Shown here: one piece after another, positions 18,001 to 21,000 of the stretch | Layout of the letters: every line of letters starts with the position of its first letter | Numbering within the stretch: the first letter of the stretch is position 1 | From: a virus | Lineage: Duplodnaviria; Heunggongvirae; Uroviricota; Caudoviricetes | Virus record (IMG/VR): IMGVR_UViG_2718218360_000008 | Length of the DNA: 64,000 bases | Direction: 5' to 3' (one strand) | Position numbers: made by a program

Positions 18001-21000
18001 TTTTCCCTTTGATATTACTTGTTCAATATTATCCGGCTGTATATTTAATTTTTCGCTATCAAATAGTTTGTGCTCCGTCCCTACAGATGCATACTGAAAT
18101 GACTTTAAAGGATGGGCCATTGCCAGTGGATTTAATTCCTTAAAAATAATATTGGTATATATGTTAATATCATTATAACTCAGCATATCTTGATTAATAA
18201 TATGTTTTAAAAAAAGGTTTAGTAGTATTTTTTCTGGTGGGAGAGTTTCTTCTGATGACTCCTTTTGTGGTTCAATAAGGTTACCTTTTTCATCAATAGC
18301 AATGAGCATTTCGCTTATGCCATCCTCTTTTTTATTATATGAATAATTATTTGCTATATCTATTTGGCATTTATTAATATCAGCATTCGATAGGTTATCT
18401 ATGGAATAGTTAACCATTCTTCTGAATGTTGGGCTGTGTGAGTATTGATGCTGTAATATTCTGTTTATGTTTTCCTCTACAATATCATTGTGTGGATGAA
18501 AAAATATATCATAAATATTTAAATTGTAATGTTTTTCATTTCTTGCTTTTTTATCAAAAGCACATTGTTTTGGGCTTATTCCAGATGTTTGCTCATTAAA
18601 AACTACATCGTTATTAGTTTCTGATAGTTTCATTAAGTATTTGTTTGTGTCCCATGTTCTGATTTCTTTAATTTTTGATAGAGGAGCTGTGGTATACGAA
18701 GTAGAATGATGGATTGTCGGCATTTTGTCTTCCTTTGAATGAAAGTAATTTTCTATAGAATTTCCATAATCCCTTTAAGGGAGGCTTTTTTATGATATTT
18801 TTAAGTGGAAGTCAATATGTTGGTAAAATATTATTATACTCCTCGACGAATCTTAGGGTAAGTTATCTCTCTATTTAAGAACTATGGTAACTTTCAATTA
18901 TTTACAAAGCTGTTTGGATATTCAGGTCATTATCTCTTTGGGAATCCGGATTTCAAAATTAACAAAGCTTCTTCTATGCTGCATTTATATGGGGTTACTC
19001 ATAACATGGTGGCTGAATACTTGATAGTGGTGTATTAATTCACCAGAGGTCATCGTCATGGAGGAAAACTGTGGTGAAAAGAGTTAATTTCCGGAGTGAC
19101 TGACAGGATGCCAATCAATGATCGGAAGCATGCCTAACTGTGATCGATTCAGATGCCATTTTGCAACCACTGTGCAGGGAGTCTTGCCGGTTATCTTCGC
19201 ATGCTCACCGACAGCTCAGCTGTTAGTCATCAAAACACTCTCAATGGACATGAATGTAGGCTATATAAGGGCAACGCGCATCCACTTACCCAATGTGGTT
19301 GAGCAAATAGACTTCGATCACTTTCATGTGGCGAAACAACTGGTGGAGGTGATGGATAAAACCCGCCAGAATGAACATCCGCATCTTCCTGTTGAAAGTC
19401 GTCGTCAGGCAAAGGGAACGCGCTTCTGGTGGCAGTACAGCGATAAATGGATGACCGAATCCAGGCAGGAAAAGTTGATATGGCAGAGTGCGCAGATGAA
19501 GCTGACGAGCTAGTGCTGGGAGCTGAAAGAACTGGCAAAGGATATCTGGAGCAGACCATGGAGCGAGGAAAGACGCAACGACTGGCATAGATGGCTGACG
19601 TTGACGGCCAACAGTGACGTCCCCCATGATGAAGAACGTGGCTAAAACGATAGGGAAAAGGCTGTACGGTATCCTGAACACCATGCGCTATGGTGTATCA
19701 AACGGAAATGCGGAGGCACTGAACAGCAAGATCAGGCTGCTGAGAATAAAAGCCAGGGGATACCGCAACTGGGAGCGCTTTAAGCAGGGAGTGATGTTCC
19801 ACTATGGGAAACTGAATATGGCGTTCTAAGTCTTCCCACCATGATCGGGGAAGACCCATTTATGTACAGGTGTTATTTTTATCTGTGTATATCCAGTGTC
19901 AATTTATGATATAGGCTATGGGGCATGTACGGGACATTTTTTATCGGCGAAATTCGTCGAAGTTCGTCGACATGGTAAACGAATCATCTATCCAACCCTT
20001 GAAAAACGGCGCTCCTGGACGATCTTTGTCGATTTTTAAAAATGTTGCGTCACGCAGTTAAAGTGGCGGGCATCCTCTTCAAGGATGGTGATCCTCAACC
20101 GCACCCATTTAGGATGCGACTATTGTGGTAGAACAATGTAAACCATAATTAATCTGCGTGCGGATACATGCTTCATAGATAGGATATTCTGGTTTGGGTT
20201 GTGAATGCGTTGGTCATCGAGTGGACAATAAGGTAAGAGGAGTAACTCCTGCAAAACAAAAAAGAGTTCAACAAAATCAATCAGTTAAAAACACGAGAGA
20301 TCTGTATAAAAAAGCATCGTAAATTCTGTATTTTTCCTTTAAATATAATATGTTATTGAGTTTTGTAAAATCTACCAGTGTGGTACATGGATATCGATAC
20401 CACGGCTAAGTATAAATCTGGTGTTACTACCGTGAAAGACTCGGTACGACTGGATCCGTGGGTGTTTATGTTCTCCGCAGGATATCGTTTTTAATTTTCT
20501 CTGCAAAACCTCTGCAAAACCTCTGCAAAACCCCTCTGCAAAACTGGTCATCAAATGACCAGTTTTTTCCATTCCTTACCGCGTGCGTCGTTGTAAATAT
20601 CGGTCATTTTTTGATTCGAATGGCCTAGCAAAATTTTGGTATCAACCCCCTGCTCTCTGAACAATCGCTCTGATAAAGATCTCTGCTCATGGAAAGAGGG
20701 TGGGGTGCCATTAGCACGCCAGTTGTAATCCACAGAATCCCGGGCTTTTTTAAATGCAACGGTTAATGTTGCTGGCTTAACCATCCCGCCGCGCTTAGCT
20801 GTCCCTTTCGCGTGATGGTGGTGCAATAGCCACGGACTAAGAACGCAATCGCGGCAGGATGACACCACATCATCTAGGGTGAGATTTAATTTATCGCAAC
20901 GCAGAGCCAGAGGGATGGCAATCCGGGTTCCTGTTTTTTGCTGTTCGACATGAAGATAACCATCCCGGATATCCGAAAATTGCATTTTGCAAATATCTGA

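What the first reader, a model, noticed from the sequence alone, without database searches (positions are those of the whole stretch)
20499..20568. Four 11-bp direct repeats and a perfect palindrome at the 3' end of int
CTCTGCAAAAC occurs four times (three in tandem) and abuts an 8-bp-stem palindrome followed by T6 that overlaps the int stop codon. The position, at the int-proximal edge of prophage B just right of the prophage A cargo, is where attL with Int/IHF arm-type sites is expected. The palindrome plus T run would also terminate rightward transcription entering int antisense.
Basis: seen in the sequence. Interest (0 to 1): 0.5.

Follow-up and report, generated by a model that had tools for sequence, protein, structure and literature searches.

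The report
Integrase arm-binding repeats beside prophage int
The four 11-bp repeats are most likely the docking sites that this lambda-like prophage's integrase holds with its small N-terminal domain, and the palindrome after them most likely ends transcription of the host ompW gene that the phage repairs; this is ordinary phage attachment-site anatomy, here with one extra repeat.

Summary
CTCTGCAAAAC occurs exactly four times (20499-20544) and abuts a hairpin (8-bp stem, 12 bp with A/T extension) plus T6. The int stop codon sits at the stem-loop boundary.

The repeats lie in the P' arm of the attachment site of an ompW-integrating lambdoid prophage (the PPompW family). The crossover core is 20378-20405, inside a phage-borne copy of the last 121 bp of ompW. 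A fifth copy of the motif (20248-20257) and an IHF consensus (20275-20287) lie on the other arm.

The integrase has a lambda-type arm-binding domain. Across 69 distinct int-proximal arms from relatives down to about 48% identity, 62 carry three such repeats next to the int stop, spaced 11-12 and 13 bp. This holds whichever host gene is targeted (ompW, icd, ushA-like, porin-like).

The motif comes in classes (YCTGCAAAAC, TCCCCAAAAC, TTATCAAAAC). Each phage's P arm carries one site of its own class, 117-119 bp from the core. The phage 21 GenBank record annotates the equivalent repeats as attP subsites.

Four copies is a rare allele; about 80% of E. coli carriers have three. The locus is a tandem-prophage P-core-P' junction, not a true attL. 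Binding was not tested.

The parts
20248..20257 (+). Single arm-type site on the P arm (CCTGCAAAAC; TCCTGCAAAAC from 20247). It has the same orientation as the four P' copies, and its 3' end is 118 bp upstream of the CCAGTG... core marker (120 bp upstream of the 28-bp identity block).
   Evidence: it is the only other YCTGCAAAAY match in 64 kb, with a weight-matrix score of 14.5; the site is conserved in three diverged P arms (PPompW attR, L146, L125) while the sequence to its left is not; phage 21, Kp4865-4 and e14 have a site of their own class at the same distance (117-119 bp).
20275..20287 (+). IHF consensus AATCAATCAGTTA (WATCAANNNNTTR), 17 bp right of the P-arm site and about 100 bp from the core. 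This is the lambda P1-H1 arrangement.
   Evidence: it is one of only two perfect matches in the window, so the match alone is not significant; perfect consensus matches lie at about the same distance from the core in phage 21 (AATCAAACGGTTG, -99) and on the e14 P arm (AATCAATGAGTTA). Binding is inferred.
20378..20405 (.). Crossover core: the 28-bp block CAGTGTGGTACATGGATATCGATACCAC. It is identical in attL, attR and this junction and contains the inverted repeat GTGGTA...TACCAC.
   Evidence: in PPompW_132418, attL switches from host-type to phage-type ompW sequence, and attR from P arm to host-type sequence, exactly at the edges of this block.
20376..20496 (+). Phage-borne copy of the last 121 bp of ompW (...WYMDIDTTAKYKSGVTTVKDSVRLDPWVFMFSAGYRF*, stop at 20494-20496). 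After integration it replaces the 3' end of the host gene. In the literature this is the '121-bp att'.
   Evidence: annotation as an OmpW fragment and as 'duplication due to insertion of PPompW'. PMC8112680 states that att was confirmed by sequencing attP PCR products.
20499..20509 (+). P' arm-type site, copy 1 (CTCTGCAAAAC).
20510..20520 (+). P' arm-type site, copy 2. One of copies 1-3 is the extra unit that most relatives lack.
   Evidence: most E. coli carriers match with an 11-bp gap, meaning three copies.
20521..20531 (+). P' arm-type site, copy 3.
20534..20544 (+). P' arm-type site, copy 4, after a CC spacer. Its AAAAC forms the left A-tract and first stem base of the hairpin.
20540..20568 (+). 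Hairpin (12-bp perfect stem, 3-nt loop) followed by T6. It is a probable intrinsic terminator of the phage-completed ompW, and a weaker one (T4) for int on the other strand.
   Evidence: I3; -14.4 kcal/mol, z = -5.8; it is present only in ompW-targeting relatives. The icd- and ushA-targeting relatives instead have a GC-rich hairpin plus T run between the target gene's stop and the repeats.
20551..21681 (-). int: a 376-aa lambda-family tyrosine integrase with an N-terminal arm DNA-binding domain (residues 2-71).
   Evidence: PF09003, E = 7e-22; PF00589, E = 1e-16; full-length match to lambda Int structures 5j0n and 1z1b, E about 1e-55.
21659..21907 (-). xis: excisionase, overlapping the start of int.
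   Evidence: PF07825, E = 1e-7; annotation.

Best explanation
The four repeats are the P' arm-type binding sites for the N-terminal arm-binding domain of the adjacent integrase. They correspond to P'1-P'3 of lambda and to the 'P1P2P3' subsites annotated in phage 21, and this allele carries one duplicated unit.

The full site reads, left to right: one arm-type site and an IHF site on the P arm (20248-20287); an AT-rich spacer; the 28-bp crossover core (20378-20405); a phage-borne replacement for the last 30 codons of ompW; then the tandem arm-type sites (20499-20544) abutting the end of int.

By analogy with lambda, Int molecules would bridge these high-affinity arm sites to the weakly bound core sites to build the integration and excision complexes.

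The hairpin plus T6 is the phage-supplied terminator of the reconstituted ompW gene. It stops ompW transcription from running antisense into int. Its right arm doubles as the last five int codons, and it may also end the int transcript.

What is shown: the sequence anatomy, the Int domain content, the core position, family-wide conservation, class-matched sites on both arms, and the copy-number distribution. What is inferred: Int binding, IHF binding and termination.
For: 1. Int has a lambda-type arm-binding domain and so needs arm sites.

2. Position matches lambda and phage 21. The tandem repeats lie directly downstream of the int stop, and the phage 21 GenBank record labels the equivalent three repeats 'integration site attP consists of 3 subsites P1P2P3; consensus YYTTCCCCAAAA'.

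3. The repeats follow the integrase, not the target gene. Of 69 distinct int-proximal arms from homologues with 48-100% identity, 62 have exactly three sites, spaced 11/13 bp (53 arms) or 12/13 bp (9 arms). In nearly all arms (65 of 69) the last site ends within about 21 nt of the int stop. The YCTGCAAAAC class is found at ompW, icd, ushA-like, porin-like and ABC-permease targets.

4. The motif falls into classes (YCTGCAAAAC; TCCCCAAAAC; TTATCAAAAC; CAGTAAAAT). These partition with residues 7, 13, 15, 19, 21, 28 and 58 of the arm-binding domain.

5. In all six attP or attR regions I could examine, the P arm carries one site of the same class as that element's own P' sites, in the same orientation, ending 117-119 bp from the core. 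The six are PPompW, L146 and L125 (class G), phage 21 (class C), and Kp4865-4 and e14 of K-12 (class T). The sequence to the left of this site is not conserved.

6. A perfect IHF consensus lies at about -100 on the P arm in PPompW, phage 21 and e14.

7. The hairpin is stable. It is present only where no other terminator follows the replaced gene end.
Against: - There is no binding, footprinting or recombination data for this phage. PMC8112680 maps the att site but does not mention arm sites.
- The motif classes coincide with integrase clades, and the N- and C-terminal domain trees are congruent. The covariation therefore rests on only three or four independent events, and any linked gene such as xis would show it too.
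- No IHF consensus lies in the 93 bp between the core and the first P' site, whereas lambda needs H' there. The P' sites are 95-150 bp from the core here, against roughly 50-85 bp in lambda (from memory).
- No second P-arm site (a P2 equivalent) was found with a weight matrix.
- The simple terminator scanner did not call the hairpin. My interpretation is that its stem extension uses up four of the six T's.
Confidence: 0.85

Rival explanations
1. The repeats bind a different recombination accessory protein, such as the excisionase (whose lambda sites X1, X1.5 and X2 are also tandem direct repeats) or a host factor, rather than the Int N-terminal domain.
For: A lambda-type Xis gene lies next to int. 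Tandem direct repeats at about one helical turn also fit cooperative Xis filaments. The clade-level covariation cannot separate Int from Xis.
Against: In lambda the Xis sites lie on the P arm next to the core, not on the P' arm beside int (PMC4880445). The layout here, three tandem sites on P' plus one distal site next to an IHF site on P, is the lambda arm-site layout. Phage 21's equivalent repeats are annotated as attP subsites. From memory, they were proposed as Int arm recognition dodecamers.
Confidence: 0.05
2. The repeats act at the RNA level, either as a 3'UTR element of the hybrid ompW mRNA (CUCUGCAAAAC x4) or as a 3' element of the int mRNA that controls its stability, analogous to lambda sib retroregulation.
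For: In ompW-type phages the repeats lie between the ompW stop and the terminator, so they would be transcribed. In all relatives they lie just 3' of the int stop.
Against: In icd- and ushA-type relatives a terminator precedes the repeats, so they lie outside the target-gene transcript. The class-matched P-arm copy at a fixed 117-119 bp from the core has no RNA explanation. There is no Rfam match. Apart from the terminator hairpin, the predicted folds involve only weak repeat-to-repeat pairing.
Confidence: 0.05
3. The array is a functionless, slippage-prone minisatellite that happens to sit in the intergenic gap.
For: Copy number varies: two to five copies among relatives, and four here against three in most E. 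coli.
Against: The three-copy, 11/13-bp architecture and the motif are held across genera and across integrases down to about 48% identity while the flanks diverge completely. The class-matched copy on the other arm also argues against it.
Confidence: 0.02

Closest known systems
Phage 21 attP (icd-integrating lambdoid phage; GenBank OL657228.1 feature 'attP ... 3 subsites P1P2P3; consensus YYTTCCCCAAAA'; Wang et al. 1997 J Bacteriol 179:5705, recalled from memory, not readable here)
   Same: The Int is homologous (50.5% identity). Three tandem sites with 11-12/13-bp spacing abut the int stop. One site of the same motif lies 118 bp upstream of the core, followed by an IHF consensus. A phage-borne replacement of the target gene's 3' end lies between the core and the P' sites.
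   Different: The motif is TCCCCAAAA rather than CTGCAAAAC. The target is icd rather than ompW. The terminator of the replaced gene lies before the repeats rather than after them. Phage 21 has three copies rather than four.
Bacteriophage lambda attP arm-type sites P1, P2, P'1, P'2, P'3 (PMC4880445)
   Same: Both have a heterobivalent Int with an N-terminal arm-binding domain. In both, tandem P' sites lie next to the end of int, a distal P-arm site is paired with an IHF site, and the arm motif is unrelated to the core sequence.
   Different: The motif sequence differs (lambda's is C/AAGTCACTAT, from memory). Only one P-arm site was detected here, against two in lambda. No H'-like IHF consensus was found. 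The P' sites are about twice as far from the core, because a gene fragment is carried in between.
e14 cryptic prophage of E. coli K-12 (icd)
   Same: It has the same family architecture. The triple GGTTATCAAAAT/TTTATCAAAAA/GTTATCAAAAC follows the phage-supplied icd end and terminator at attL. One GGTTATCAAAAC plus an IHF consensus lies on the P arm, about 117 bp from the core, at attR.
   Different: The motif is the TTATCAAAAC class. About 3 kb holding three genes (ymfD, ymfE, lit) now separates the P' sites from intE.
PPompW prophages of STEC O145:H28 and O157:H7 (Nakamura et al. 2021, PMC8112680; LC5678xx records)
   Same: This is the same element family. The Int is 99.7-100% identical, and the 121-bp att and P arm are nearly identical to the window's (2 SNPs in the 121 bp). 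Tandem PPompWs occur in some O157:H7 strains.
   Different: Those records carry three repeats. The paper defines att as the 121-bp duplication and does not mention the arm-type repeats, the 28-bp crossover block or the terminator.

Membership tests
Arm-type Int-binding sites of lambda-family (heterobivalent) tyrosine integrases | The cognate integrase carries an N-terminal arm DNA-binding domain. | tested here: met
   PF09003, E = 7e-22, residues 2-71; alignment to lambda Int from residue 12.
Arm-type Int-binding sites of lambda-family (heterobivalent) tyrosine integrases | There are several copies of a roughly 10-bp motif, unrelated to the core sequence, on both arms of attP flanking the crossover core. 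| tested here: met
   There are four copies on P' (20499-20544) and one on P (20248-20257), flanking the core at 20378-20405. These are the only five matches in 64 kb.
Arm-type Int-binding sites of lambda-family (heterobivalent) tyrosine integrases | The motif follows the integrase rather than the integration target, and changes when the arm-binding domain changes. | tested here: met
   The same motif occurs at five or more different target genes. There are four motif classes that partition with arm-domain residues. Caveat: the classes are clades.
Arm-type Int-binding sites of lambda-family (heterobivalent) tyrosine integrases | DNA-bending (IHF) sites lie between the arm and core sites. | tested here: inconclusive
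   The P arm has a perfect consensus at 20275-20287, conserved in phage 21 and e14. On the P' side the only whole-window consensus hits are 20275-20287 and 42339-42351, so none lies between the core and the repeats; inspection by eye agreed.
Arm-type Int-binding sites of lambda-family (heterobivalent) tyrosine integrases | The sites are bound directly and with high affinity by the Int N-terminal domain, and are required for recombination. | not testable with these tools
   This needs gel-shift or footprinting assays and att-site mutagenesis.
Phage 21 / e14-type attP (target-gene 3' end carried between core and P' sites) | The phage carries a replacement 3' end of the target gene, the crossover is at the 5' edge of that homology, and three tandem sites lie beyond it next to int. 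| tested here: met
   Searches show the sequence switches at the 28-bp block. Searches show the same layout in phage 21 and e14.
Rho-independent (intrinsic) terminator | A stable GC-containing hairpin is followed directly by a U-rich tract at the end of a transcription unit. | tested here: inconclusive
   The 8-bp core stem has 4 G-C pairs and is followed by T6. The free energy is -14.4 kcal/mol, z = -5.8, and the hairpin starts 47 nt after the ompW stop. The consensus scanner did not call it. No transcript 3'-end data are available.

The most novel reading that the evidence does not exclude
This integrase family may be a natural series of arm-site specificity switches. At least four motif classes occur within a rigid scaffold: three P' sites spaced 11/13 bp, and one P site 117-119 bp from the core next to an IHF site. 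A handful of residues in the N-terminal domain (positions 7, 13, 15, 19-21 and 28) track the DNA change, which could give a readable recognition code for the arm-binding domain and explain why co-resident prophages do not cross-excise.

In the ompW-targeting branch the arm sites are also transcribed as the ompW 3'UTR. Host ompW transcription could therefore disturb intasome assembly and link excision to ompW expression.
Probability: 0.15. Interest if true: 0.45.

Novelty: new member of a known kind. Interest (0 to 1): 0.25.

Why it matters
The result places the functional attachment site of one of the commonest E. coli prophage families. The int-repeat region is present in 1728 of 5426 complete genomes, including effector-carrying PPompW prophages of O157:H7 and O145:H28.

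- The true crossover block is 28 bp, not the whole 121-bp duplication.
- The full site spans about 320 bp, roughly 20248-20568.
- The junction between tandem PPompWs is a complete attP-like site. This bears on how these prophage clusters rearrange and on whether 'attB-in-prophage' sequences are really targets.

Beyond that, it is textbook lambda-type site anatomy.

Tried and rejected
- **Second att copy in the window.** I looked for a second copy of the ompW fragment or core to define attR of prophage B. None exists. The region from about 63250 to the end reads as an IS1 copy by eye.
- **IMG/VR pattern scan.** It was not informative.
- **IMG/VR integrase loci.** Most are cut exactly at the int stop. 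Only L090, L118, L121, L125, L139, L146 and L164 gave usable flanks.
- **Primary literature.** The phage 21/e14 arm-site paper (Wang et al. 1997) is not held. What I say about it is from memory.
- **Second P-arm site.** A weight-matrix scan found no second P-arm site (P2 equivalent) scoring 4 or more.
- **IHF site on the P' side.** The whole-window consensus search gave no hit between the core and the P' sites, and none was seen by eye; no mismatch-tolerant scan was run.
- **Known RNA families.** Rfam at gathering and at permissive thresholds gave nothing relevant at the locus. The only hit is a spurious NRON match at 18 bits against a gathering score of 50.
- **Hairpin covariation.** The ompW-type variants show only single-sided changes, and the right arm is also coding sequence, so this test was not possible.
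- **Prophage A location.** I first suspected prophage A sat at ydfJ, as in strain NCCP 13894. The window's own left flank instead matches O157:H7 strains with tandem PPompWs.
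Full report
**1. Observation**

Window 20499-20544 holds four exact copies of CTCTGCAAAAC. Three are head to tail and the fourth follows a CC spacer. The last copy runs into a palindrome: CTGGTCAT (20544-20551), loop CAA, ATGACCAG (20555-20562). Flanking A4/T4 extend it to a perfect 12-bp stem, and T6 follows at 20563-20568.

The array is far beyond chance. With one mismatch allowed there are 5 matches against 1.2 expected, and 0 of 100 shuffles reach that. YCTGCAAAAY occurs five times in 64 kb, all at this locus and all on the + strand.

The hairpin is predicted at -14.4 kcal/mol, z = -5.8. The int ORF (20551-21681, - strand, 376 aa) ends with its TGA at 20551-20553, on the stem/loop boundary. 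The right arm and the T run encode K-K-L-V-I.

**2. Context**

Window 20376-20496 is the last 121 bp of an ompW gene on the + strand (...PWVFMFSAGYRF*, stop 20494-20496), 2 nt (20497-20498) before the first repeat. About a third of complete E. coli genomes have this arrangement of ompW, repeats and int. GenBank records of 'PPompW' prophages annotate the 121 bp as the duplication made by insertion. PMC8112680 reports confirming this att by sequencing attP PCR products.

I compared attL and attR of PPompW_132418. Only the 28-bp block CAGTGTGGTACATGGATATCGATACCAC is identical at the point where the sequence switches. In attL it switches from host ompW to phage-type ompW. In attR it switches from the phage arm to host-type ompW. 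The crossover therefore lies within window 20378-20405. The remaining 93 bp are a phage-borne replacement for the end of ompW, about 84% identical to the native gene.

Left of the core, window 20060-20377 is virtually identical to the P arm seen at the PPompW attR. Window 1-14538 is repeated at 48566-63110 with 98.9% identity. The left flank matches O157:H7 strains with tandem PPompWs, such as YB14-1 and FRIK2069. The locus is therefore the junction of two tandem prophages. It is a complete P-core-P' (attP-like) site rather than a true attL. The window holds no second copy of the ompW fragment or core, and from about 63250 it reads as IS1 by eye, so the attR of the right-hand prophage presumably lies beyond the window end.

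**3. The integrase**

Int has the lambda arm DNA-binding domain (PF09003, E = 7e-22, residues 2-71) and the catalytic domain. It aligns over its full length to lambda Int structures with E about 1e-55. A lambda-type Xis gene lies upstream. Such integrases bind two kinds of DNA: the core sites where they cut, and distant arm-type sites on the P and P' arms, with IHF bends between them (PMC4880445). This integrase must therefore have arm sites somewhere in its attP.

**4. Comparative test**

I collected 80 genome loci and 80 viral loci encoding homologues and read the DNA beyond each int stop.

- Of 69 distinct int-proximal arms, 62 have exactly three tandem sites, spaced 11/13 bp (53 arms) or 12/13 bp (9 arms). 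In 65 of the 69 arms the last site ends no more than about 21 nt from the int stop.
- The window's motif class (YCTGCAAAAC, typically TTCTGCAAAAC-TCCTGCAAAAC-nnTTCTGCAAAAC) occurs with integrases of 48-100% identity in Escherichia, Kluyvera, Raoultella, Salmonella, Pantoea, Providencia, Xenorhabdus, Yersinia, Serratia, Ewingella, Rahnella and Erwinia.
- These elements are inserted into ompW, icd, a ushA-like gene, a porin-like gene and an ABC-permease gene. The repeats therefore follow the integrase, not the target.
- Other branches keep the architecture but change the motif: TCCCCAAAAC (phage 21 and others), TTATCAAAAC (e14 of K-12, Kp4865-4 and others) and CAGTAAAAT (one locus).
- The classes partition with residues 7, 13, 15, 19, 21, 28 and 58 of the arm-binding domain. 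Most of these fall in the segment that aligns with the lambda N-domain beta-sheet; the alignment is, and the structural role is from memory.
- The classes are also clades, so this covariation counts as only a few independent events.

**5. The other arm**

Arm sites should occur on both arms. In the window the only other match to the motif is CCTGCAAAAC at 20248-20257, in the same orientation, ending 118 bp before the CCAGTG core marker.

The same holds in every attP or attR region I could examine. Each has one site of its own class ending 117-119 bp from the core:
- the PPompW attR and two diverged class G P arms, L146 and L125, whose sequence to the left of the site is unrelated;
- phage 21 (TCTTTCCCCAAAA, 118 bp);
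- Klebsiella phage Kp4865-4 (GGTTATCAAAAC, 119 bp from the record end);
- e14 (GGTTATCAAAAC, about 117 bp).

A perfect IHF consensus lies 17-27 bp to the right of the P-arm site in PPompW (20275-20287), phage 21 and e14. This is the lambda P1-H1 layout.

The phage 21 genome record annotates its three int-proximal repeats as attP subsites P1P2P3 with consensus YYTTCCCCAAAA. From memory, the Campbell laboratory proposed these dodecamers as arm recognition sites and showed that phage 21 needs its own arm consensus. I could not read that paper.

**6. Copy number**

Most E. coli carriers match the query with an 11-bp gap, meaning three copies: 1390 records fall in the 90-95% identity band with 170-bp matches. 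Only about 14 records match at 99% or better, which is the four-copy allele. A four-copy array with 11/11/13 spacing arose independently in a Pantoea locus (L052) and a Proteus locus (L042). A Yersinia locus (L020) has five copies and a few loci have two. The extra unit here is a slipped 11-bp duplication that the system evidently tolerates. Its effect on recombination is unknown.

**7. The palindrome**

The hairpin occurs only in ompW-targeting relatives (E. coli, Kluyvera, Raoultella, and imperfectly in Salmonella). The icd- and ushA-targeting relatives instead have a GC-rich hairpin plus T run between the target gene's stop codon and the repeats, and no hairpin after them. Each phage thus supplies one terminator for the gene it repairs. 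In the ompW branch that terminator sits after the arm sites and overlaps the int stop.

On the + strand the 8-bp stem is followed by T6, a good intrinsic terminator. On the - strand only T4 follows. The simple scanner missed the hairpin; my interpretation is that its stem extension through the A-T pairs uses up the T run. Termination is inferred, not shown.

**8. Rivals**

- Xis or another accessory protein as the binder cannot be excluded by covariation. However, the layout is that of arm sites, not of lambda's Xis sites.
- An RNA-level role is unlikely. In icd-type relatives the repeats lie outside the target transcript, the class-matched P-arm copy at a fixed distance has no RNA rationale, and no Rfam family matches.
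- A neutral minisatellite is excluded by the conservation.

**9. Verdict**

This is a real feature whose interpretation is essentially correct. The repeats are the P' arm-type sites (plus one extra copy) and the hairpin is the terminator of a lambda/phage 21-type attachment site belonging to the ompW-integrating PPompW prophages. It is an undescribed member of a well-known kind, so interest is low to moderate.

The by-products are more useful than the finding itself:
- the 28-bp crossover block;
- the roughly 320-bp extent of attP;
- the attP-like nature of the tandem-prophage junction;
- the family-wide motif classes with fixed geometry.

Noticed in passing
window 1-14538 and 48566-63110: A 14.5-kb direct repeat at 98.9% identity. 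It represents the late/tail regions of the two tandem prophages and is a large substrate for homologous recombination between them.
   Followed up: partly
window 20049-20069: GTCACGCAGTTAAAGTGGCGG is one mismatch from the 21-bp 'attB-in-PP_1' into which Stx2a phages integrate in PPompW prophages (PMC8112680). It is unoccupied here.
   Followed up: partly
window 20060-20568: The '121-bp attB-in-PP_3' that PMC8112680 describes as a potential attB inside prophages is, at this junction, flanked by a full P arm and a full P' arm. It is therefore an intact attP-like site rather than a bare target. Whether the same holds for the ydfJ and mlrA prophage clusters, and which integrase inserted those phages, was not resolved.
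   Followed up: partly
window 63250-64000: The sequence from about 63250 to the window end reads as an IS1 copy (inverted repeat GGTAATGCTGCCAACTTACTG..., then InsA/InsB-like coding sequence). This was judged by eye and not checked with a tool. It interrupts the right-hand cargo region of prophage B, and the window ends inside it.
   Followed up: no
window 16183-18723 (- strand) and 19118-19829: An 846-aa ORF is annotated in matching genomes as a DUF4765 family protein, a probable type III effector in the cargo of prophage A. It is followed by fragmented transposase ORFs.
   Followed up: no
window 25055-25106, 30035-30217, 30921-31095, 36739-37139: Rfam matches at gathering score within prophage B: DicF, isrK, C4 antisense RNA, sok (hok/sok), a tRNA, STnc100 and AgvB (anti-GcvB).
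   Followed up: no
L005, L010, L158 (Kluyvera and Enterobacter loci, Int 66-68% identical): These integrase homologues have no arm-type repeats next to the int stop. An unrelated AT-rich ORF region follows instead. This suggests either inserted DNA between int and attP, as in e14 where ymfD, ymfE and lit separate them, or a decayed site.
   Followed up: no
L290 645-680 and L291 788-799 (E. coli K-12 e14): The K-12 cryptic prophage e14 has the TTATCAAAAC-class triple repeat just after the icd terminator at attL. One copy plus an IHF consensus lies on the attR P arm. The annotated sRNA C0293 lies about 230 bp beyond the triple repeat.
   Followed up: partly
L020 (Yersinia pekkanenii), L042 (Proteus penneri), L052 (Pantoea sp.), L047 (Proteus hauseri): Arm-site copy number changed independently in several lineages: five, four, four and two copies. 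The four-copy arrays all have the same 11/11/13 spacing as the window.
   Followed up: partly
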